62,387 nt of DNA from Thermomicrobiales bacterium (lineage in GTDB: Bacteria; Chloroflexota; Chloroflexia; Thermomicrobiales; CFX8). Shown one piece after another: positions 4,669 through 41,848 of this stretch (position 1 is its first letter; every line of letters begins with the position of its first letter). The stretch spans positions 1-62,387 of the forward strand of contig DATKCN010000294.1 in assembly GCA_035513175.1 (NCBI GenBank), written 5' to 3'. The notes beneath the pieces were generated by a model. That model made no database searches. It was given only the letters and a program-made list of their open reading frames with translations, and was not told where the DNA came from. The translations under genes and the position numbers were made by a program.

Positions 4669-6462
4669 TCAGTCGGTGAGCGACAGCGCTCGCGACGTGA
4701 CCTGTTCCTGAATCATCGTGACAACGTCGGACAGCGGCATCGGACCTGGGTTCTCCCCCGTTCGAAGTCGAACAGACACCGAGCCAGCCTCTGCCTCGCG
4801 GTCGCCGACGACAAGCATGTATGGCACGTGCTGGAGTTGCGCTTTGCGAATCTTGTTCTGCATGCGTTCCCCGCTGGCATCGACCTCGACGCGGAATCCG
4901 TGCGATCTGAGCTGTTCCGCAACCGAGCGACCGTACTCCGCGTGCCGATCTGCAATCGGGATGACCGCTGCCTGGACCGGCGCGAGCCAGACCGGGAAGG
5001 CTCCTGCAAAATGCTCGATCAACACGCCCAGGAAGCGCTCCGTGCTGCCCGTCACCGCGCGGTGGATCACGACCGGCGTATGCGGCTGTCCGTCCTCACC
5101 GATGTACTCGCATTCCAGCCGCTCGGGTTGAATGAAGTCCACCTGGATCGTCGAAAGCTGCCACTCGCGCCCCAGCACATCGCGCGCCAGAAAGTCCGCC
5201 TTCGGACCGTAAAACGCCGCCTCGCCCTCGGCGGGATCATACGCGACGCCCTTGGCGTTCATCGCGTCACGAAGCGCCTGCTCGGCGCGCGTCCACTTCG
5301 CGTCGTCCGCCACGTACTTGCCGTCCGTGCCACGCAACGACAGCCGGATACGATAGTCGGAGAAGCCGTATGTGTCGAGTATCTCGCGGATCAGGTCGAG
5401 CGCCCGGCCAAACTCATCGCCGATCTGATCCGGCGTGCAGAAGACGTGGCAGTCGTCCTGCGTCAACGCTCTTACGCGCGTCAGGCCGCTCAACTCTCCG
5501 CTCTTCTCGTAGCGGTACAGCGTCGCGAACTCCGCGTAGCGCAGGGGCAACTCGCGGTACGAGTGGAGCTGCTGGTTGAACAACGCCATGTGCGATGGAC
5601 AGTTCATCGGCTTGAGACGGTAGCGCTGTTCTTCATCGACCATCGGCGGAAACATCACGTCGCCGTAATGCTCGAGGTGCCCGGACTTGCGAAACAGCTC
5701 CTCCTTCACGAGATGCCCTGTCCAGACATGCTCGTAACCGTGTCGAGTCTGGACGTCACGGACGTACGACTCCATGAGATGCCGCAGCATTTCGCCCTTG
5801 GGAAAGAAGAGCGGGATGCCGAGGCCGACCTCCTCGGAGATCGCGAACAGCCCGAGTTCGCGCCCCAGCCTGCGATGATCCCGCTTTTTCGCTTCCTCGA
5901 TCTGATGGAGATGAGCGTCGAGTTCCTCGCGCGTGTTGAAGGCAGTGCCGTAGACCCGTTGCAGCATCGGGCGCTTCTCGTCGCCGCGCCAGTACGCGCC
6001 GGCAACGCTCATCAGCTTGAAAGCCCCGATCCCTCCCGTGTCCTCCACATGAGGTCCGCGGCACAGGTCAACGAACGAGCCGTTGCGGTAGGTCGAAATG
6101 ATCTCACCCTCGGGCAGATCCTGGATCAGCTCAAGCTTGTACGGCTGGTCAGCGAACAGGTCGAGGGATTCCGGCCTGGACACCTCACGACGCTCGAACT
6201 GCTCCCGCGCGTCGATGTGCGCCTGCATGCGCCCCTCGATCTCGGCGAGATCGTCTGGAGTCAGAGCACGAGGCAGGCCGAAATCGTAGTAAAAGCCCGC
6301 GTCAATTGCCGGCCCGATCGCGAGCTTGGCATCCGGAAACATTTCGAGAACCGCTTCAGCCAGCACGTGCGCCGCCGAATGCCGCATGCGCGCGAGGTCT
6401 GCTTCCTCCACGTTCTCAGCTGAAGCCAGAATATCATCGAGTCCCTCAGGTCCTGACGCCAT
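4669..6462 (-). CDS. thrS: threonyl-tRNA synthetase (no N-terminal TGS domain)
   Basis: Editing-domain motifs HSAAH and CRGPH, class II catalytic core and anticodon-binding domain are present. ATG at 6462 is preceded by GAGGAGGAG. A T-box leader with a Thr codon lies upstream. Confidence 0.95.
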   Translation of the reverse strand: MASGPEGLDDILASAENVEEADLARMRHSAAHVLAEAVLEMFPDAKLAIGPAIDAGFYYDFGLPRALTPDDLAEIEGRMQAHIDAREQFERREVSRPESLDLFADQPYKLELIQDLPEGEIISTYRNGSFVDLCRGPHVEDTGGIGAFKLMSVAGAYWRGDEKRPMLQRVYGTAFNTREELDAHLHQIEEAKKRDHRRLGRELGLFAISEEVGLGIPLFFPKGEMLRHLMESYVRDVQTRHGYEHVWTGHLVKEELFRKSGHLEHYGDVMFPPMVDEEQRYRLKPMNCPSHMALFNQQLHSYRELPLRYAEFATLYRYEKSGELSGLTRVRALTQDDCHVFCTPDQIGDEFGRALDLIREILDTYGFSDYRIRLSLRGTDGKYVADDAKWTRAEQALRDAMNAKGVAYDPAEGEAAFYGPKADFLARDVLGREWQLSTIQVDFIQPERLECEYIGEDGQPHTPVVIHRAVTGSTERFLGVLIEHFAGAFPVWLAPVQAAVIPIADRHAEYGRSVAEQLRSHGFRVEVDASGERMQNKIRKAQLQHVPYMLVVGDREAEAGSVSVRLRTGENPGPMPLSDVVTMIQEQVTSRALSLTD

Positions 6463-6569
6463 ATGACTCCTCCTCATCAGTGCTGATGCGATTGCCGCGT
6501 CGCCCTAATCCTCGGTCTCGAGTGCAGTGTCGGGCTCGGTCGCCACGTCGCCCTCCTCTCGCCCCGTTA

Positions 6570-6805
6570 ACGACAACGAGCCTGCCGCCACAAGGGACGG
6601 CAGGCCCGTGAACAGCCTGGCGTGGTTCCACCCTTCTTCCGGCGCCTGATGCGCCGCTCGAAGCGCCCGATAACGGTGGGCTGCCGGAAGCGGCTACCAG
6701 CGACGTGTCGCGTTCGCCGTTCAGCTCGCGGGTGGTCTTCTCGAAGCTTCGGTGAGTGGGACTCTCAGCCGATGATCCCACGTCTCTGCCACCGCAAGGC
6801 CCCAG
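6570..6805 (-). promoter_or_regulatory. T-box riboswitch leader of thrS (specifier ACC, Thr) with a terminator hairpin
   Basis: Elements on the - strand, in order:
- AG-bulge GCUGAGAGUCC.
- Specifier region GAGAAG-ACC-A (ACC at 6736..6734, followed by A).
- F-box CCGUUA (6676..6671).
- T-box sequence GAAGGGUGGAACCACGCC (6640..6619).
- 8-bp hairpin GCCUGCCG/CGGCAGGC (6605..6580), followed by UCGUUGUCGUU. Confidence 0.75.
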
Positions 6806-6833
6806 TACTCGTCCCGGTCAACGCCGTGAATGA

Positions 6834-6910
<77 letters not shown>

Positions 6911-6966
6911 TTGCATCGCATAATACCACGGCTGTCAGAACGCGATCAACGCTCCCCGCGAGACGC

Positions 6967-7572
6967 TTATCCGGCGCCTCCGGCTTCGAATCGCAACCGG
7001 TCGATCAGCCTGTCAGACAGTTGAATTGCGACGTACACGGGCAGATACGCGCCTTCCGCGACGACACGCGTCGACGGGGCGCCGCTGCTCACACTCATCC
7101 TTCGAAGCCTGACAGCCTCGTCGAACTGTTCGACCGCGCTCTGGATCCAGTCCCGCTCGTCATTGAGCAGCAGGTCGGCGTGCCTGTCCCCGATATCGAG
7201 CAGCGTCGACGCTATCATCGAGGAAACGGACGTAAACGCGTCCCACGCGTCGAAGTCATACTCCGCGAACAGCGGCTCCACGACCGACTTCCATCGGTTC
7301 CGCTGGAGGAGGATTGTCGCGTGCCGCATATCGCGCGCGGCGGACGCGACCAGCACACTGCCGATTTCGTACTTCGGCGGCAGCGCCATGGCGTCGCGCT
7401 TCAGCCAGGCCGCGTGCCAGTCCGGCTTCATGCGAGAGGCGCTCTCATACAGGAGCGCGAGCGTCCGAAACAGCTCAATGAACACGTCCTCGCGAGTCGG
7501 TCCGCGCCGGCTCCTGCGCAGCAAAAGTGTCGCGGACGCAAGCGCGATAGCCATGAGATGCAGCATCAGCAC
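6967..7572 (-). CDS. hypothetical protein (N-terminal TM helix plus soluble domain)
   Basis: 201-aa ORF with no recognisable motif. Its codon usage is consistent with its neighbours. Confidence 0.45.
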   Translation of the reverse strand: MLMLHLMAIALASATLLLRRSRRGPTREDVFIELFRTLALLYESASRMKPDWHAAWLKRDAMALPPKYEIGSVLVASAARDMRHATILLQRNRWKSVVEPLFAEYDFDAWDAFTSVSSMIASTLLDIGDRHADLLLNDERDWIQSAVEQFDEAVRLRRMSVSSGAPSTRVVAEGAYLPVYVAIQLSDRLIDRLRFEAGGAG

Positions 7573-7631
7573 GAGTTGGACTTCCTTACGTCGGCGCCAC
7601 AGCGCACTGGCGACGCGGCCAGACTAAGCCG

Positions 7632-8156
7632 TCATCCGCCGCCGAGCGACTCGACGCCCAGCATGAGCAGGGCGGCTTTTGGCCGGTCATCGATCGTCCT
7701 CCCAACATAACAGTAGCGAACGTTCCCAGCGGCGTCGACGATGAACGTGGATGGACGCGCGACAGTTCGCTGGGTCCCGGCGTCGAGTTCACGCAGGCCC
7801 AGGGCGTCCATCGCGACGGCGTCACGGTCGATCAGCACCTCGATCGTGTCGCCGACGAGGTCACGCATGGCCCGCGCCCCCTGTAGATCATCGGCGCTGA
7901 TGGCGACTACCGTGACCCCCAGAGTCCGGAACGCGTCGATGCCATCAGCGAGCCCTACGAGCTGCGCACAGCAGTGGTCTCACCAATGCCCGCGGTAGAG
8001 CACGATGACCGTCGACACCGCGTTCAGCGTTACGTCGCGATCGTCGACATTCCGTAGCAACAGCGTTGGGAACACGTCCCCGACGCCGATCGAGGGCGAC
8101 AGCGTCGACAGCGTCAATGTCCGAGAACCCGCACGGAGTGGAGCCGCGAGTGCCAT
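7632..8156 (-). CDS. peroxiredoxin-like AhpC/TSA (redoxin) protein with an in-frame TGA at the catalytic Cys position. It is a candidate selenoprotein (UxxC); the alternative is a nonsense pseudogene.
   Basis: The - strand frame reads ...SIGVGDVFPTLLLRNVDDRDVTLNAVSTVIVLYRGHW-TGA(7982..7980)-DHCCAQLVGLADGIDAFRTLGVTVVAISADD..ARPSTFIVDAAGNVRYCYVG.., continuous with track ORF 7632..7868. The TGA aligns with the first Cys of the family motif YRGxWCPxC. Possible starts are ATG 8156 or TTG 8117 (a TTGA overlap with the RNase H stop). Confidence 0.55.
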
Positions 8157-8563
8157 GAGACCGTCGTTGACCGGAAGCGCGTCAGCAGCTCGGCTGCTTC
8201 AGCATGCAGCGGACGCAGTCCCGGGTGACGCACCTTCCAGCGTCCGTTCAGCTGTTCCACGACGAGCATGGAGTCCGACAGGACTGCCAACGACACATCG
8301 TGCGGGTCGCGCGCGTTACGTTCCAGCTCCTGCAGGATGCGCCGCAGGCCGTGGATCAGCGTCATGTATTCGGCCTCGTTGCTTGTCGTGCGTCCGTCGA
8401 AGTCGATTCGAACCCGATCAGGTGACCCGACGAGGCCGGTCGTCACATACGTCCCATAGCCCTTGCCGGGGTTCCCTATTGATCCTCCGTCGAAGATCAA
8501 CGAGACATCCGCACTCGCGGCGGATTGCGCGCTCGCGCGCTGTCGCTTCGGCGACGCTGCCAT
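8114..8563 (-). CDS. ribonuclease HI family protein
   Basis: Motifs are FDGGSIGNPGKGYG (first catalytic Asp), TSNEAEYMTLIHGL (catalytic Glu) and VLSDSMLVVEQLNG (catalytic Asp). 149 aa. Confidence 0.8.
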   Translation of the reverse strand: MAASPKRQRASAQSAASADVSLIFDGGSIGNPGKGYGTYVTTGLVGSPDRVRIDFDGRTTSNEAEYMTLIHGLRRILQELERNARDPHDVSLAVLSDSMLVVEQLNGRWKVRHPGLRPLHAEAAELLTRFRSTTVSWHSRLHSVRVLGH

Positions 8564-8627
8564 TTCGCGTCCTCTATTGGATCGGTCGCAAGCCGCCTCA
8601 CACGCGTCGCGCGACCCACAAACAGCT

Positions 8628-10706
8628 CTAGACGCTTGCTTCCTGCCTGGCCCGGTGCGCGGAAACGATAGCGTCGGTCAGGTGGCTGGGAACCTGCTGG
8701 TAGTGGCTGAACTCCGTCGTGAAGGTGCCCCGCCCCTGCGTAATGGATCGCAGGTCCGTCGCATAGCGCTGCACCTCCGCGGACGGCACCGTGGCCTCTA
8801 TCGTCGTCGAGCCGGCGCCGCTCGGCGTCATCCCGGTCACGTGAGCGCGCTTGGTCGTGAGGTCGCCCATCACGTCGCCCGTGTATCCGTCCGGCACGGT
8901 CACCTCGATGCGCAGCACCGGCTCCAGGATGACCGGCTGCGCTGCCTGCGCCGCCTTCTTGAATGCCTGTGACGCCGCCAGCTTGAATGCCATTTCCGAG
9001 GAGTCGACGTTGTGGTACGACCCGTCCGTCAGCGTGACCTTGACGTTGACGACCGGAAATCCCGCGAGGATGCCCTCTTCCATCGCCTCGCGCACGCCCT
9101 TTTCGACTGCCGGAATGTACTGGCGTGGAACTGAGCCACCGAAGATGGACTCCACGAACTCGAAGTCCTGATCGGTCGGCGACACGTCGATGAAAACGTG
9201 GCCGTACTGCCCGTGTCCGCCGGTCTGCTTCTTGTGCTTGTACTCCACCTTCTGGACCGCGCGCTGGATCGTCTCGCGATACGGCACGGTCGGCAGCCCC
9301 ACGTCAACGTTAACCCCGAATTTCCGCGCCATGCGCTCCAACGCAATCTGCACATGCGACTCGCCAAGGCCGCCGACAATGGTCTCGCCGGTTTGCGGAT
9401 CGCGGCCGATCGTCAGCGTCGGATCCTCGTCGATGATGCGCGCGAGCGCGGCGCCCATCTTGTCCAGATCCGACTTGGTGCGCGGCATGACCGACGCGGT
9501 AAACAGCGTCCTCGGAAACCGGACGCCTTCGATGATCGCCTTGCGCGCGGGATCGCACAGCGTGTCGCCCGTCGACGTGTCCGCAAGCTTGGCAACCGCG
9601 CCGATGTCGCCGGCCGTCAATTCCGATACGGGAAGCTGCTCCTTGCCTCGCAGCACATAGAGCTGTCCGATCCGCTCGTCCTTGTCCTTGACCGTGTTCC
9701 ACACATGCGAGTCGGACCGGATCGTGCCCGAGAAAACCCGGAAATACGTCAGCTTACCGACGAACGGGTCAGCCATCGTTTTCCAGACGAGCGCGGCCAG
9801 CGGCTCGTCAGGAGATGGATTCAGCTCAACCTCGGCCGCGCTTATGGTCTTCGCGAGCTCCGGTCCAGGGGCAGGGGCAAAGGCGACGATCGCGTCCATC
9901 ACGATGCCGACGCCACGGTTCATCGCCGCTCCCGACACCAGCACGGGAACGACCTCACGCCGGGCAACGGCGGCACGCAAGGCCCTCCGCAGCTCGTCAG
10001 TCGAAATCTCCTCGTCCTCGAGATAGCGCAGCATGAGCTCTTCGTCGCTCTCGGCGATCTTCTCAACGATGTGCAGGCGGTACGTTTCAGCCTCATCGAG
10101 CAGTTCGGCTGGAACGTCCGCGTCGGTCGTATCCCCGGCGCGACCGTCGGCGAACAGATGCGCGCGCATTTCAAGTAGATCGACGACGCCGCGAAACGAC
10201 GACTCACTGCCGATTGGGATGTAGAGCGGGACAACGGCGTGCCCCAGCAGGGACTGGGCCGATTCGAGGCTGCTGGCAAAATTCGCGTTCTCGCGATCCA
10301 TCTTGTTGATCACGAGAATGCGCGGCAGCTCCCGCTCCTGGGCGAACTGCCAGGCATACTCGGTCCCGACCTCAACGCCAGCCGACGCGTCAAGCAGGAT
10401 GACGGCGCTATCGACGACGCGAATGCAACCCTTCACCTCGCCGATGAAGTCAGCGTATCCGGGGGCGTCGAGCACGTTGATCTTGTGGTCCCGCCACTCG
10501 ACCGGCGCGATGCTCGTGCTGATCGAGATTGTCCGCTTGACTTCGTCCGGATCCCAGTCCGAGACGGTGTTGCCTTCTTCAACACGACCAAGCCGAGAAA
10601 TAGCATTGCTGTTGAACAACATGGCCTCGGTCATTGACGTTTTCCCGGCGCCACCATGTGAGAACAGGCCGATGTTGCGGATGCTGTCGACAGGGTACGT
10701 CTTCAC
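8628..10706 (-). CDS. elongation factor G family GTPase. It lies outside a str operon, so it is likely an EF-G paralog.
   Basis: G1 is HGGAGKTS, G3 is DAPGYADF and G4 is NKMD. EF-G domains II-V are present across the 692-aa length. Confidence 0.9.
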   Translation of the reverse strand: MKTYPVDSIRNIGLFSHGGAGKTSMTEAMLFNSNAISRLGRVEEGNTVSDWDPDEVKRTISISTSIAPVEWRDHKINVLDAPGYADFIGEVKGCIRVVDSAVILLDASAGVEVGTEYAWQFAQERELPRILVINKMDRENANFASSLESAQSLLGHAVVPLYIPIGSESSFRGVVDLLEMRAHLFADGRAGDTTDADVPAELLDEAETYRLHIVEKIAESDEELMLRYLEDEEISTDELRRALRAAVARREVVPVLVSGAAMNRGVGIVMDAIVAFAPAPGPELAKTISAAEVELNPSPDEPLAALVWKTMADPFVGKLTYFRVFSGTIRSDSHVWNTVKDKDERIGQLYVLRGKEQLPVSELTAGDIGAVAKLADTSTGDTLCDPARKAIIEGVRFPRTLFTASVMPRTKSDLDKMGAALARIIDEDPTLTIGRDPQTGETIVGGLGESHVQIALERMARKFGVNVDVGLPTVPYRETIQRAVQKVEYKHKKQTGGHGQYGHVFIDVSPTDQDFEFVESIFGGSVPRQYIPAVEKGVREAMEEGILAGFPVVNVKVTLTDGSYHNVDSSEMAFKLAASQAFKKAAQAAQPVILEPVLRIEVTVPDGYTGDVMGDLTTKRAHVTGMTPSGAGSTTIEATVPSAEVQRYATDLRSITQGRGTFTTEFSHYQQVPSHLTDAIVSAHRARQEASV

Positions 10707-29852: not shown

Positions 29853-29867
29853 GGCGGGTGCTATACT
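29838..29867 (+). promoter_or_regulatory. candidate sigma-70 type promoter for rplS (TTGCCC-N18-TATACT)
   Basis: The hexamers are read directly. They overlap the 3' end of the upstream gene, about 130 nt before the rplS ATG. Confidence 0.35.
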
Positions 29868-29998
29868 CCCATGATGCCCGCCGAACGCGGGACTTTCACT
29901 GTGTAGCTCGATTCTCCGGCGCGTGAACGACAATCTGATCATGTTGCCCAGCGACGCTCCTTGTCGTCGGCTGAGGTCGTGGATGAGGAAAGTGAATC

Positions 29999-30367
29999 AT
30001 GGTTGACACGATTCGAGAGTTGGAGAGCGTGCATCTTCGCAGCGACCTGCCTGACTTCGGTCCCGGCGACACCGTGCGCGCCCACGTCAAGGTCGTTGAG
30101 GGCAGCCGGGAGCGCCTGCAGGCGTTCGAGGGTGTCGTCATTCGCCGTCGTGGCGGCGGCATCAACGAGAACTTCACGATTCGCCGCATCGCGTCGCACA
30201 GCATCGGAGTCGAGCGCACGTTCCTGCTGCACTCCCCGCGCGTCGAGCGCATCGAAGTGCTGCGTCATGGCAAGGTGCGACGCGCCAAGCTGTACTACCT
30301 GCGCGGCCGGACCGGCAAGGCTGCGCGCATCCGCGAACGCCGTCGCCCGTCGGGCTCGGTGATGTAG
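29999..30367 (+). CDS. rplS: 50S ribosomal protein L19
   Basis: Full-length L19: [51 protein letters not shown]. Confidence 0.97.
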
Positions 30368-30537
30368 CGCGTCCGTCCCGTTTCCAGACCAATCAGCGCG
30401 CGATGGGACAGGACCATCTGGCGCCATTTCGTGTCCGCCGGCTGGCAGACGGGCGCGGCCTGGCAATCGCCATGCGTGGCTAACATTGAACGTAGCCCAG
30501 GGCGTAGCGGAATGAAGACGCCGGATCGGAGGGCTCG

Positions 30538-30759
30538 ATGCAGAAGCGCCAGCATGACAAGTCTGCCGAATCCTTGTTGCGAGCACACGGGCACAAGCCG
30601 GAAGAGTTGTCAGAGCTGACCGGTGTTGGGGCCAACATCATCCGCCGCGCCTCATACGACGGCGATCTGGGGGCCACGATCGTCGAAACCGACATCGTCG
30701 ACATTCCGCGAGCCTTCCCGATCGCGTGGCTCAACGTGCGCTCCGAGGTGATTTCCTAG
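30538..30759 (+). CDS. small excisionase-family / MerR-like HTH protein (putative)
   Basis: 73 aa. The segment PEELSELTGVGANIIRRASYDGDLGATIV..DIPRAFPIAWL resembles the excisionase-type HTH pattern (helix-turn-helix, then 'G-L-P/A...I-P' wing). Coding status is uncertain. Confidence 0.4.
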   Translation: MQKRQHDKSAESLLRAHGHKPEELSELTGVGANIIRRASYDGDLGATIVETDIVDIPRAFPIAWLNVRSEVIS

Positions 30760-30923
30760 GAGACGCCGTCGTAACCCGTCGGGCCGGGTGGATCTCGGCA
30801 CGAGTGTTTTCGATAGATCACCTTACGGTTCGACGTCCGCTCCCGTATGCGATGATACCGACCGAACGAGTAGCGTCGATCCGTCGCGACGCGCCGCGGC
30901 GTCCGGCCACTGCGAGGCTGAGG

Positions 30924-31619
30924 ATGGTGAATCCGTCCATGTCTTCGATACGGAATCAATCCCCGAGCCTGCGATGGGAGAAGGACGCGTGGTCCGGCGG
31001 CAAGCTTCTGGTGGCCGGCGTCGACGAGGTTGGGCGCGGAGCATGGGCGGGTCCCATCGTCGCCGCAGCCGTCGCGCTTCCGGCAGACCCGGCGTTTCGA
31101 GCGCGCCTGACGCGCGCGTTGCGCCGTGCCGAAACGCCGATACGCGACTCCAAGCAGATGTCGCCGCAACAGCGGCGGCGCGCGGTAAGCGCAATTCAGG
31201 ACATCGGCATGCAGTTCGCCGTCGCGTCGATTCCGGCTAGTGACATCGACGTGGTGGGATTGGGGCTCGCGAACCGGCAGGTGCTGTGTGACGCGGTGCA
31301 GGCGCTGTCGCCCGAACCAGATCACGTGCTGGTGGACGCCTTTGCTCTGCCAAATCTCCGCTGCTCGCACGACGCGATCGTCCACGGCGATTCGATCAGC
31401 TTCGCGATCGCGCTTGCCTCCATCGTCGCAAAGGCGCATCGCGACTCGCTGATGATCGAACTCTGCGAGCGCTTTCCCGTGTACGGGTTCTCCGCGCACA
31501 AAGGGTACGGCACCGCCCAGCATCGGGCGGCACTTCTCACCCATGGGCCGCTCGAACACCACAGGCGTTCATTCCGGCCGGTCGCGGAGCTGGCGTGGCA
31601 TGCGGCGCACGACCGCTAG
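30924..31619 (+). CDS. rnhB: ribonuclease HII
   Basis: VAGVDEVGRGAWAGPIVAAAV (DEDD first motif), DSKQMS and the C-terminal HKGYGT motif. The start is chosen at ATG 30924 (GAGG upstream) within track ORF 30726. Confidence 0.9.
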   Translation: MVNPSMSSIRNQSPSLRWEKDAWSGGKLLVAGVDEVGRGAWAGPIVAAAVALPADPAFRARLTRALRRAETPIRDSKQMSPQQRRRAVSAIQDIGMQFAVASIPASDIDVVGLGLANRQVLCDAVQALSPEPDHVLVDAFALPNLRCSHDAIVHGDSISFAIALASIVAKAHRDSLMIELCERFPVYGFSAHKGYGTAQHRAALLTHGPLEHHRRSFRPVAELAWHAAHDR

Positions 31620-41163: not shown

Positions 41164-41674
41164 GCGCTTCGATGTCCCGTTGCGCATCGGGGTGGTCTCG
41201 GACACACATCTGATCAACGCTGAGCGTGGCATCTCCGACCGCGTGCTCAAGCTGCTTGATGGGTGCGATCTGATCTTTCACGCGGGCGACATCAACCGAC
41301 AGTGGGTGCTGGATGCCCTCCAGACCGTTGCGCCCGTGCGAGCGGTGTACGGCAACAACGACCCGATCGAGCTTCAATTGCGCCTGGCTATCGACCGCTA
41401 CTTTCAGATTGGTCCTCACCGCATGGGGCTGATCCACGGCCACACCGCGACGCACGCAAAACGGATGACGGCGCGGCAACGGGCGCAGGAAGGCATGCAC
41501 GGCGTTGTCGACTGCGTCGTCTACGGGCACAGTCACCAGCCGGAAATCGAAACGCGGGACGGGTTGTTGATGGTCAACCCGGGATCGCCGACAGCGCCGC
41601 GCTGGGCGCCATTTCCGACGCTCGCGATCATCGAGATTGGAGAGACGATCGATGCACGACTGATCGTCGTCTGA
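41150..41674 (+). CDS. YfcE/MJ0936-family metallophosphoesterase
   Basis: RIGVVSDTH, HAGD, GNND, IHGH and YGHSH motifs appear in order. The start is uncertain (TTG 41150 or TTG 41180) and overlaps the upstream stop. Confidence 0.8.
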   Translation: MPEFERFDVPLRIGVVSDTHLINAERGISDRVLKLLDGCDLIFHAGDINRQWVLDALQTVAPVRAVYGNNDPIELQLRLAIDRYFQIGPHRMGLIHGHTATHAKRMTARQRAQEGMHGVVDCVVYGHSHQPEIETRDGLLMVNPGSPTAPRWAPFPTLAIIEIGETIDARLIVV

Positions 41675-41741
41675 CGTCAGGGAAACGCTGGGGACGCCGC
41701 TGAGGCCGCGCTGCGCGTGGCAACCACGTGATTAAGTCGTG

Positions 41742-41771
41742 TTGCGCGTCACTAACTACGCGCCCTATAAT
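41742..41771 (+). promoter_or_regulatory. candidate sigma-70 type promoter of rpsA (TTGCGC-N18-TATAAT)
   Basis: The hexamers are read directly in a local AT-rich patch, about 78 nt upstream of the rpsA ATG. Confidence 0.45.
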
Positions 41772-41848
41772 AGGGTGCGTTTCGCCGACGTAGCGTAATT
41801 TGTTTTGCGTTGCCATAAGTCGGCAAATCTGACGCGCGAGGATGGCAC

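What the first reader, a model, noticed from the sequence alone, without database searches (positions are those of the whole stretch)
7632..8156. Peroxiredoxin-like gene interrupted by one in-frame TGA at the catalytic Cys: candidate UxxC selenoprotein missed by ORF calling
The six-frame track reports only a 78-aa ORF (7632..7868, -), which is the C-terminal half of an AhpC/TSA redoxin fold.

Reading the same frame upstream gives uninterrupted homologous sequence back to ATG 8156 or TTG 8117: SIGVGDVFPTLLLRNVDDRDVTLNAVSTVIVLYRGHW-[TGA 7982..7980]-DHCCAQLVGLADGIDAFRTLGVTVVAISADD.

In Cys-containing family members this segment reads ...FYRGxW-C-P-x-C-N-x-Q-L. The only stop codon therefore sits precisely on the peroxidatic/redox Cys and yields a U-x-x-C motif.

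Prx-like and thiol:disulfide oxidoreductase-like proteins are established bacterial selenoprotein families, in which Sec replaces exactly this Cys. The total length (about 160-174 aa) is normal for the family. Neither half alone would be functional.

The alternative is a TGC/TGT-to-TGA nonsense pseudogene or a sequencing error.
Basis: partly seen in the sequence, partly recalled or inferred. Interest (0 to 1): 0.8.

Follow-up and report, generated by a model that had tools for sequence, protein, structure and literature searches.

The report
Missed selenocysteine redoxin gene in Thermomicrobiales
The "broken" peroxiredoxin-like gene is almost certainly an intact gene whose internal TGA codes for selenocysteine, a well-known kind of recoding that gene callers routinely miss; here it is newly documented in soil Thermomicrobiales.

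Summary
Window 7632..8117 (-) is one AhpC/TSA-fold gene of 161 codons with a single in-frame TGA at 7982..7980.

The TGA is not an error or a decay product:
- A near-identical contig from another dataset carries it.
- Six more diverged orthologues from five other datasets have TGA at exactly this codon. About 30 other orthologues have Cys (TGC/TGT).
- Downstream of the TGA, TGA-bearing pairs show dN/dS of 0.11-0.18 with no further stops or frameshifts.
- All seven TGA forms share one hairpin, CAGCUC-GUN-GGGCUG, whose loop starts 21 nt after the UGA. It meets every criterion of the published bacterial SECIS model. Only 2 of 9 Cys orthologues pass, with unrelated hairpins.
- Of 35 amino-acid-invariant degenerate columns, only the three stem codons (CAG, CUC, GGG) are codon-invariant.

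The Sec sits at the first Cys of a thioredoxin-like W-C-x-x-C motif, not at the classical peroxidatic Cys. That position is kept as Cys49.

The Sec machinery of this genome could not be examined. All three cultured Thermomicrobiales in a published survey have SelD, SelA and SelB.

Verdict: a real selenoprotein and a new member of a known kind (Prx-like UxxC oxidoreductases). Confidence is about 0.88 and interest is moderate.

The parts
7632..8117 (-). Complete selenoprotein coding sequence: 161 codons plus the stop TGA at 7634..7632. It is a Prx-fold redoxin with a U46-D-H-C49 motif. ATG 8156 in the same frame is a less likely alternative start.
   Evidence: Translation. Pfam AhpC-TSA full-length match across the TGA. 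The start position is conserved in orthologues. An AlphaFold model of the 63%-identical Cys orthologue P0001 has pLDDT 93.7, with Prx/Bcp/AhpE as top structural neighbours at TM 0.77-0.84.
7980..7982 (-). In-frame UGA, read as selenocysteine (residue 46).
   Evidence: TGA at the same column in L005, L088, L089, L090, L091, L010 and L021. TGC/TGT in L001, L002, L006-L009, L011, L012, L055 and in proteins P0004-P0026.
7940..7973 (-). Predicted bacterial SECIS stem-loop (nt 10-43, counting the U of UGA as 1). It has a lower stem, an internal loop, and an upper stem GC-AGCUC/GGGCU-(C)-GC with a bulged C. The apical loop is G25-U26-A27 (7958..7956).
   Evidence: MFE -13.1 kcal/mol, loop GUA, 21 nt between the UGA and the loop, 5-bp uninterrupted upper stem. 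It meets the published bSECIS criteria. The same hairpin occurs in all 7 TGA forms. The stem codons CAG/CUC/GGG are the only invariant codons among 35 invariant degenerate amino-acid columns. L091 has one G-C to G.U change. There is no double-sided covariation.
7971..7973 (-). Cys49 codon (TGC), the second residue of the UxxC pair. It is the inferred resolving partner that forms a selenenylsulfide with Sec46.
   Evidence: Invariant in all homologues aligned. It aligns with the peroxidatic Cys of PrxQ/Bcp and with the second Cys of ResA WCxxC.
7752..7754 (-). Pro122 codon, aligned with the conserved cis-Pro of thioredoxin-fold oxidoreductases. It takes the place of the catalytic Arg of true peroxiredoxins.
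   Evidence: Invariant or near-invariant. It aligns with the Pro of ResA '..lPTSFLID' and with the Arg of PrxQ 'AKRAVFVID'.
8114..8563 (-). Upstream RNase H-like gene (149 aa). Its TGA stop (8116..8114) overlaps the TTG start (8117..8115) of the selenoprotein gene, which suggests translational coupling.
   Evidence: ORF list. Pfam RVT_3/RNase_H in orthologous contigs. NCBIfam RNase H hits. The overlap is conserved in 13 of 16 loci.
6967..7572 (-). Downstream conserved gene of unknown function (201 aa), the third member of the conserved cluster.
   Evidence: No Pfam or NCBIfam hit. It lies immediately downstream of the redoxin gene in every locus with enough sequence.

Best explanation
Window 7632..8117 (-) is one functional gene for a 161-residue selenoprotein.

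Decoding (inferred by analogy with the established bacterial mechanism). During translation the UGA at 7982..7980 is decoded as selenocysteine. A stem-loop in the mRNA just downstream (nt 10-43 after the U of UGA, apical loop GUA) acts as a bacterial SECIS element. It recruits SelB-GTP carrying Sec-tRNA(Sec) to the ribosome.

Product. The protein has a peroxiredoxin-type fold, but its active site is thioredoxin-like: W-U46-D-H-C49 at the N-terminus of a helix, opposite a conserved Pro122. The canonical peroxiredoxin Thr and Arg are missing.

Chemistry (inferred). The selenolate of Sec46 attacks an oxidised substrate, either a disulfide or a peroxide. Cys49 then resolves the intermediate into a selenenylsulfide. 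That bond is re-reduced by a thioredoxin-type reductant.

Shown here: the TGA/Cys alternation, selection on the downstream reading frame, the conserved hairpin, and the fold with its motif alignment.

Inferred: actual Sec insertion, the presence of selABCD in this genome, and the substrate.
For: 1. The TGA is real. A contig from another dataset (L005) has it while differing at two other sites.

2. Six further diverged orthologues have TGA at the identical codon: L088 and L090 (Logan SRR32481286), L089 (JGI 3300072952), L091 (JGI 3300048569), L010 (MAG MGR_bin225) and L021 (MAG MFD03066.bin.1.56). All sit in the same RNase H-redoxin context where it can be seen. About 30 other orthologues carry Cys there, and the closest Cys forms read YRGHW-C-DHCCAQLVGLAD.

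3. The frame downstream of the TGA is under purifying selection between TGA-bearing pairs, with no extra stops or frameshifts in about 115 codons:
- window-L088: dN/dS 0.17, dS 1.2
- L010-L091: dN/dS 0.11, dS 0.67
- L010-L021: dN/dS 0.13

4. All 7 TGA forms pass the published bSECIS model. The criteria are a loop of 3-9 nt with G in its first two positions, an upper stem of at least 4 bp, 16-37 nt spacing and MFE of -7.5 kcal/mol or lower (quoted in PMC13188914). They pass with the same hairpin: loop GUN, spacing 21, stem 5-7 bp, -8.1 to -16.6 kcal/mol. Only 2 of 9 Cys orthologues pass, with unrelated hairpins. My own one-sided Fisher calculation gives p = 0.003.

5. Among 35 amino-acid-invariant degenerate columns in the 7 TGA forms, only 3 have an invariant codon: Q52 CAG, L53 CUC and G55 GGG. 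These are exactly the stem codons. The loop codon V54 varies in its third position. The chance of this placement is 1 in 6545 by my calculation.

6. TGA is an ordinary stop elsewhere in the window. Both the RNase H gene and this gene end in TGA, so a reassigned genetic code is excluded.

7. The organism belongs to Thermomicrobiales. Sphaerobacter thermophilus, Thermomicrobium roseum and Nitrolancetus hollandicus are all SelD+, SelA+ and SelB+, with 9, 5 and 8 known selenoproteins (Peng et al. 2016, Tables S1 and S2).

8. Prx-like UxxC oxidoreductases are an established predicted selenoprotein family.
Against: No selA, selB, selD or tRNA-Sec gene is in the 62-kb window or in the Thermomicrobiales loci fetched. 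The rest of this genome could not be read, so the machinery is only inferred from cultured relatives.

The hairpin is not thermodynamically exceptional for this G+C-rich sequence (z-scores +1.0 to -0.6). It shows no double-sided compensatory changes: the stem is nearly invariant, with one G-C to G.U change.

The two outermost stem pairs seen in five TGA forms are replaced in the window and L088 by a shifted register with a bulged C.

There is no experimental evidence of selenium incorporation.
Confidence: 0.88

Rival explanations
1. Recent nonsense pseudogene: a TGC-to-TGA mutation killed a Cys-type redoxin gene, and the downstream sequence simply has not yet decayed.
For: The closest full-length homologues (P0001, P0002) have TGC at this codon, one base away from TGA. 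Both SNPs between the window and L005 fall inside this gene, which makes up about 19% of the compared length.
Against: The same TGA is found in six further orthologues that are saturated at synonymous sites relative to each other. All have intact frames and dN/dS of 0.11-0.18 downstream.

The window shares the SECIS-type hairpin with all TGA forms, and the Cys forms lack it.

Both SNPs are third-position transitions: one is synonymous and one is Met/Ile.

A random nonsense hit landing on the redox Cys in three clades is not credible.
Confidence: 0.03
2. Sequencing or assembly error at 7980 (true base C or T).
For: It is a single-base difference from the Cys codon. Read pile-ups were not available.
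Against: An independently assembled contig from run SRR8556377 has TGA while differing at two nearby positions. Six other assemblies from five other datasets have TGA at the same codon.
Confidence: 0.01
3. The conserved UGA plus hairpin is a recoding or regulatory signal that does not insert Sec. Possibilities are hairpin-stimulated read-through by a near-cognate tRNA (Trp or Cys), or programmed termination that yields a 45-residue peptide, with or without re-initiation.
For: The Sec machinery was not observed for this genome. The structure evidence rests on conservation, not covariation.
Against: The UGA replaces the nucleophilic Cys of an otherwise invariant CxxC pair, which is the classic Sec/Cys signature.

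The hairpin fits the SelB-type SECIS model, including the G-U in the loop at about 21 nt.

Relatives in the order have SelD, SelA and SelB and multiple selenoproteins.

A truncated 45-residue product would lack the whole fold, yet the downstream part is under selection in frame.
Confidence: 0.05

Closest known systems
Prx-like thiol:disulfide oxidoreductase selenoproteins (PF00578, UxxC/UxxU). Also the related entries 'Redoxin family protein PF08534 UxxC' and 'Peroxiredoxin-like family protein cd02970 UxxS', all listed in Table 1 of PMC13188914.
   Same: - AhpC/TSA (PF00578) and Redoxin (PF08534) domain.
- Sec at the first position of a UxxC redox motif.
- Cys-containing orthologues.
- SECIS immediately downstream of the UGA inside the coding region.
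   Different: No direct sequence comparison with the type member (WP_010940744.1) was possible here.

This clade is confined, as far as sampled, to Thermomicrobiales and related Chloroflexota from soil metagenomes. It has its own motif (YRGHW-U-[DE]-[HY]-C-x-x-QLVGLA). It also has a fixed gene context: RNase H-like gene, redoxin, then an unknown gene of about 200 aa.
Canonical peroxiredoxins of the PrxQ/Bcp and AhpE type, and the Sec-containing Prx (PxxxTxxU)
   Same: Overall fold. The model of orthologue P0001 superposes on Bcp4 3hjp at TM 0.84 and on AhpE at about 0.78. These are also the best PDB sequence hits. Cys49 occupies the peroxidatic-Cys position.
   Different: The catalytic Thr is replaced by Sec/Cys. 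The catalytic Arg is replaced by an invariant Pro. The Pro of PxxxT is replaced by Arg42. In Sec-Prx the Sec is at the peroxidatic position (TxxU); here it is three residues earlier (UxxC).
ResA/TlpA/DsbE thioredoxin-fold thiol-disulfide oxidoreductases
   Same: The W-C-x-x-C motif aligns column for column with W-U-D-H-C. The conserved cis-Pro loop aligns with Pro122. NCBIfam ResA is the second-best hit.
   Different: By inspection of the sequence there is no N-terminal membrane anchor or signal peptide. The scores are far below family cut-offs (30.6 vs 170 bits). The overall fold is closer to Prx than to TlpA.
E. coli fdhF-type bacterial SECIS recognised by SelB
   Same: A coding-region hairpin right after the UGA. 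The apical loop presents G-U at nt 25-26, compared with G23-U24 in fdhF (the fdhF numbering is from my own knowledge). It meets the consensus bSECIS model.
   Different: The loop is a GUN triloop closed by C-G rather than GGUC. There is no 5'-side bulged U; the window has a 3'-side bulged C. SelB binding is untested.
SelL-related redox protein (NCBIfam NF040769)
   Same: Best NCBIfam hit. It is a Prx-like2 type redox motif region.
   Different: The score is 32 bits against a cut-off of 120, so it is not a member. SelL proper has a UxxU diselenide motif (from my own knowledge).

Membership tests
Bacterial selenoprotein gene (Sec-UGA recoding) | In-frame UGA that aligns with Cys in homologues (Sec/Cys pair), with sequence conservation on both sides | tested here: met
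   TGA 7982..7980 aligns with TGC/TGT in 9 orthologous loci and about 25 database proteins. Both flanks are conserved.
Bacterial selenoprotein gene (Sec-UGA recoding) | TGA-containing homologues in other organisms, with the frame maintained past the TGA | tested here: met
   There are six diverged TGA orthologues plus one strain copy. dN/dS downstream is 0.11-0.18, with no further stops or frameshifts.
Bacterial selenoprotein gene (Sec-UGA recoding) | [quoted passage not shown] | tested here: met
   The window has loop GUA, spacing 21, a 5-bp stem and -13.1 kcal/mol. All 7 TGA forms pass with the same hairpin, against 2 of 9 Cys forms with unrelated ones. Stem codons are uniquely invariant. 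There is no compensatory covariation.
Bacterial selenoprotein gene (Sec-UGA recoding) | selA, selB, selC (tRNA-Sec) and selD in the same genome | not testable with these tools
   None are in the window. Indirect support: all three cultured Thermomicrobiales surveyed are SelD+, SelA+ and SelB+.
Bacterial selenoprotein gene (Sec-UGA recoding) | Selenium demonstrably incorporated into the protein | not testable with these tools
   This needs 75Se labelling or mass spectrometry.
Prx-like thiol:disulfide oxidoreductase selenoprotein family (PF00578, UxxC) | AhpC/TSA domain | tested here: met
   PF00578 with E 4.7e-18 and 65.7 bits against a cut-off of 26, profile positions 1-123 of 124.
Prx-like thiol:disulfide oxidoreductase selenoprotein family (PF00578, UxxC) | Sec in a UxxC redox motif | tested here: met
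   W-U46-D-H-C49. Both positions are invariant as C/U and C across orthologues.
Prx-like thiol:disulfide oxidoreductase selenoprotein family (PF00578, UxxC) | Specific sequence relationship to the described members (e.g. WP_010940744.1) | not tested
Canonical peroxiredoxin (PrxQ/Bcp, AhpE, AhpC) | PxxxTxxC active-site motif with catalytic Thr, plus a conserved catalytic Arg | tested here: not met
   In profile alignments the Thr column holds Sec/Cys, the Pro column holds Arg42, and the Arg column holds Pro122. NCBIfam peroxidase models score far below their cut-offs.
Canonical peroxiredoxin (PrxQ/Bcp, AhpE, AhpC) | Prx fold | tested here: met
   The model of the 63%-identical orthologue P0001 has pLDDT 93.7. 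Its TM-score is 0.84 to Bcp4 3hjp and 0.77-0.79 to AhpE.
SelL-related redox protein (NF040769) | Score at or above the curated cut-off | tested here: not met
   32.2 bits against a cut-off of 120.
ResA/TlpA-type thioredoxin-fold oxidoreductase | WCxxC motif and cis-Pro loop | tested here: met
   Column-for-column alignment to ResA 4nmu and 3c71. The whole-protein score is below the NCBIfam ResA cut-off (30.6 vs 170), so this is a mechanistic resemblance and not membership.

The most novel reading that the evidence does not exclude
The conserved UGA-plus-hairpin module is decoded without the canonical SelA/SelB/tRNA-Sec system. That would mean a hairpin-dependent read-through or a non-Sec recoding event at a redox Cys position, in genomes that lack selABCD.

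A milder novel reading is also open. Sec may be the ancestral state of this Thermomicrobiales redoxin, with many Cys forms arising by repeated Sec-to-Cys reversions. The leftover QLVGLA segment in P0001 and P0002 would then be a decaying SECIS fossil.
Probability: 0.04. Interest if true: 0.8.

Novelty: new member of a known kind. Interest (0 to 1): 0.42.

Why it matters
It corrects an annotation error. In the assemblies where gene calls were seen (L005, L088-L091), the gene is called as one or two fragments. No full-length call of a TGA form appeared in the protein search.

It adds a well-supported UxxC selenoprotein clade with a defined, conserved SECIS sequence. The clade belongs to an aerobic soil lineage (Thermomicrobiales) known mostly from metagenomes.

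The set of 7 Sec forms and about 30 Cys forms in one syntenic locus is a compact natural experiment on Sec/Cys exchange. It also shows how a SECIS constrains, and after loss releases, the coding sequence.

It does not reveal a new mechanism.

Tried and rejected
- The genome-contig scan with the redoxin alignment found nothing. The back-translated patterns either required a Cys codon at the TGA position or needed the exact CAQLV[GS]LAD peptide.
- The metagenome-contig scan gave only two distant Cys relatives.
- Single-sequence folding z-scores are not significant in this G+C-rich sequence, so thermodynamics alone was not used as evidence.
- RNAalifold on three sequences gave a weak consensus.
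- The count of structure pairs found no double-sided covariation.
- A scan of the window for other TGA-split ORFs with high GC3 on both sides gave 51 mostly spurious candidates. Nothing was recognisable besides this gene.
- ARAGORN, Rfam (gathering and E-value modes) and Pfam on 20 window ORFs found no sel gene or tRNA-Sec.
- tblastn with E. coli SelA, SelB and SelD against the window and 85 loci found only a SelB in a Dehalococcoidia MAG, L060.
- ARAGORN on all loci found no tRNA-Sec.
- A database search seeded with the L060 SelB, meant to find SelB entries named '[Thermomicrobiales]', was saturated by close relatives of the query (the few named hits are Dehalococcoidia/SAR202) and was uninformative.
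- Mukai et al. 2016 (PMC4833512) on unusual Chloroflexi tRNA-Sec is not held.
The Cys orthologue P0001 was modelled instead.
- The hypothesis that TGA is reassigned (code 4/25-like) was rejected, because neighbouring genes and this gene itself terminate at TGA.

Full report
**Observation**

On the minus strand the frame running from 8156/8117 to 7632 is open except for one TGA at 7982..7980. It reads ...STVIVLYRGHW-[TGA]-DHCCAQLVGLADGIDAF....
- The mechanical ORF list reports the two halves as separate ORFs of 58 aa and 78 aa.
- With Cys in place of the stop, the product matches Pfam AhpC-TSA over the whole profile (1-123 of 124, E 4.7e-18) and Redoxin (E 3e-13). A single domain therefore spans the stop.

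**Is the TGA real?**

The exact RNase H-like protein encoded just upstream is also found on a 2528-bp contig assembled from a different dataset (Logan SRR8556377, locus L005).
- L005 equals window 6874..9401 apart from two substitutions. Both lie in the redoxin gene at third codon positions: 7917 is synonymous and 7809 is Met/Ile.
- L005 carries the same TGA.
- A one-off sequencing error is therefore excluded.

**Orthologues**

The two closest full-length database homologues are P0001 (63% identity) and P0002 (59%).
- P0002 lies in the same order of genes: M42 peptidase, EF-G paralogue, RNase H-like, redoxin, protein of about 200 aa. The short P0001 contig shows a gene on each side in the same arrangement.
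- Both read YRGHW-C-DHCCAQLV[GS]LAD, with TGC where the window has TGA.

An EF-G-seeded scan of one genome per species placed the window in Thermomicrobiales (Chloroflexota). The best EF-G identity was 76%, to uncultured MAGs, and the scan returned 80 syntenic loci.

tblastn of the redoxin against those loci found orthologues immediately downstream of the RNase H-like gene in nine of them.
- Seven have TGC/TGT at the critical codon.
- Two have TGA there: L010 (MAG MGR_bin225) and L021 (MAG MFD03066.bin.1.56).

A profile search then returned about 30 more family members.
- Five of them were only C-terminal fragments of 93-107 aa.
- Fetching the contigs of four fragments showed that each is the tail of a gene with an in-frame TGA at exactly the same codon, again directly after an RNase H-like gene: L088, L089, L090 and L091.

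In total, seven distinct sequences from at least six datasets have TGA at this column. They are 41-66% identical to the window protein. Every other member has Cys.

**Is the sequence after the TGA translated?**

Between TGA-bearing pairs, synonymous sites are strongly diverged or saturated while amino-acid change is restrained. dN/dS downstream of the TGA was:

| Pair | dN/dS | dS |
|---|---|---|
| window-L088 | 0.17 | 1.2 |
| window-L089 | 0.18 | not quoted |
| L010-L091 | 0.11 | 0.67 |
| L010-L021 | 0.13 | not quoted |

There are no additional stops or frameshifts in about 115 codons. A dead gene would not show this. TGA is also a normal stop in this genome, since the RNase H-like gene and the redoxin gene itself end in TGA. 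A reassigned code is therefore not the explanation.

**SECIS**

The published consensus for bacterial SECIS elements requires (quoted in PMC13188914):
- an apical loop of 3-9 nt with a G in its first two positions, usually G followed by G or U;
- an upper stem of at least 4 bp;
- 16-37 nt between the UGA and the loop;
- an MFE of -7.5 kcal/mol or lower.

I applied exactly these rules to the 60 nt after the codon.
- All seven TGA forms pass, and with the same hairpin: (C)CAGCUC-GUN-GGGCUG(G). The loop is GUN, the spacing is 21 nt, the stem is 5-7 bp, and the MFE is -8.1 to -16.6 kcal/mol.
- In the window the element extends to nt 10-43 (7973..7940) with a bulged C, at -13.1 kcal/mol.
- Only 2 of 9 Cys orthologues pass, with unrelated hairpins at other positions. 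A one-sided Fisher test gives p = 0.003 (my calculation).

The strongest evidence is at the codon level.
- In the seven TGA forms, 35 alignment columns have an invariant amino acid with a degenerate codon.
- Only three of these also have an invariant codon: Gln52 CAG, Leu53 CUC and Gly55 GGG.
- These are precisely the stem codons. Val54, whose third base is the third loop nucleotide, varies (A/U/C).
- L091 shows one G-C to G.U change that keeps the pair.

Limits of the structural evidence:
- The stem is too conserved to show double-sided covariation.
- Folding energies are not exceptional against shuffles of this G+C-rich sequence.
- The structural claim therefore rests on model fit, on exclusivity to the TGA forms, and on synonymous-site conservation.

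**Sec machinery**

None of selA, selB, selD or tRNA-Sec is in the window or in the Thermomicrobiales loci held. The remainder of the genome could not be reached, and an attempt through SelB homologues was uninformative.

Indirect support comes from Peng et al. 2016 (ISME J).
- Table S1 lists all three cultured members of the order it covers as SelD+, SelA+ and SelB+: Sphaerobacter thermophilus, Thermomicrobium roseum and Nitrolancetus hollandicus.
- Table S2 gives them 9, 5 and 8 known selenoproteins.
- The Sec trait is thus normal in this order. Its presence in this particular organism is inferred, not shown.

**What the protein is**

That needs correcting.

Profile alignments to PrxQ/Bcp structures (2ywn, 2cx3, 3hjp) show:
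- the retained Cys49 aligns with the peroxidatic Cys;
- the Sec aligns with the Thr of the PxxxTxxC motif;
- Arg42 replaces the motif's Pro;
- the invariant Pro122 replaces the catalytic Arg.

Against ResA (4nmu, 3c71) the motif aligns as W-C-x-x-C, with the Sec at the N-terminal nucleophilic Cys. Pro122 aligns on the cis-Pro loop.

An AlphaFold model of the Cys orthologue P0001 (pLDDT 93.7) puts the first Cys at the N-terminus of helix 46-57. Its best structural neighbours are Bcp4 (TM 0.84) and AhpE (about 0.78).

The protein therefore has a peroxiredoxin scaffold carrying a thioredoxin-type U-x-x-C centre. This is what the literature calls a Prx-like thiol:disulfide oxidoreductase. That family is already listed as a predicted selenoprotein family: UxxC, PF00578, with 32 selenoproteins in 28 organisms in Peng et al. 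Table S3.

The best NCBIfam hit, SelL-related redox protein, is far below its cut-off (32 vs 120 bits).

Whether the physiological substrate is a disulfide or a peroxide cannot be decided from sequence. A selenolate could do either without the Prx Thr/Arg.

**Gene boundaries and context**

The start is best placed at TTG 8117..8115, which overlaps the TGA stop of the RNase H-like gene (TTGA).
- In 13 of 16 orthologous loci a TTG or ATG start overlaps that stop in the same way.
- Several orthologues have no alternative upstream start.
- ATG 8156 remains possible in the window, but it is not conserved.

A 201-aa protein without any family match follows the redoxin gene in every locus with enough sequence.

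**Evolution**

In a neighbour-joining tree without bootstrap support, the TGA forms fall in three places:
- window + L088 + L089, with the Cys forms P0001 and P0002 nested beside them;
- L010 + L091 + L021;
- L090 alone among Cys forms.

All TGA forms share the same hairpin at the nucleotide level. The nested Cys forms keep the QLV[GS]LAD peptide but have already changed the stem codons or residues (CAA CUG GUG GGG CUG in L002, Gly to Ser in L001). An ancestral Sec state with repeated Sec-to-Cys replacements is therefore the more economical reading. This is an inference only.

**Verdict**

This is a genuine, previously unannotated selenoprotein gene with a well-defined SECIS. It is a new member of a known kind. 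Confidence that UGA 7982..7980 encodes Sec is about 0.88.

The residual doubt is the unobserved machinery in this genome and the absence of experimental proof. Interest is moderate. The case is clean, and it is useful for annotation and for studying Sec/Cys exchange. It would not surprise a specialist.

Noticed in passing
window 6590..6830 (-): A T-box leader match (RF00230, 73 bits, E 5.9e-14, below the gathering score of 93, full model 1-219). It lies between tRNA-Val (6837..6910) and the threonyl-tRNA synthetase gene (4669..6477). It is probably a T-box riboswitch controlling thrS.
   Followed up: no
window 6967..8563 (-); the same arrangement in L001, L005-L012, L021, L055, L088-L091: A conserved three-gene cluster: an RNase H-like (RVT_3) gene, the Sec/Cys redoxin, and a protein of about 200 aa with no Pfam or NCBIfam match. 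The redoxin start overlaps the RNase H stop (TTGA/ATGA) in 13 of 16 loci. The functional link between an RNase H-like protein and a redoxin is unexplained.
   Followed up: partly
L001:8133, L002:589 (Cys forms) versus window 7982, L088:2966, L089:805 (Sec forms): The Cys forms P0001 and P0002 are nested next to the window's Sec clade. They keep the peptide QLV[GS]LAD that overlies the SECIS, but they have lost the stem-forming codons. This looks like a recent Sec-to-Cys conversion followed by SECIS decay. The tree has no bootstrap support.
   Followed up: partly
window 7809 and 7917: The only two differences between the window and the independent contig L005 over 2528 bp both fall inside the redoxin gene. 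Both are G/A third-position changes: one is synonymous and one is Met/Ile. L005 has the Ile found in the closest aligned orthologues (P0001, P0002).
   Followed up: no
window about 29853..31010 and 41164..41848: Two stretches have no recognisable gene. The only long ORFs there have atypically low third-position G+C (0.63 and 0.44) and no Pfam hit. Rfam finds nothing. The second stretch lies upstream of the ribosomal protein S1 gene. The RNase HII ORF at 30726 matches Pfam only from residue 97, so its real start is probably further downstream.
   Followed up: no
L060:308..2194 (-): A Dehalococcoidia MAG locus (close SelB homologues include a SAR202 entry), fetched through its EF-G paralogue, carries a full-length selB about 4 kb from that EF-G gene. 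It is 33% identical to E. coli SelB and has the SelB winged-helix Pfam domains.
   Followed up: no
L088 and L090 (both Logan SRR32481286): Two different Sec-form orthologues from different clades of the tree occur in the same sequencing run. Sec-using Thermomicrobiales of more than one lineage therefore coexist in that sample.
   Followed up: no
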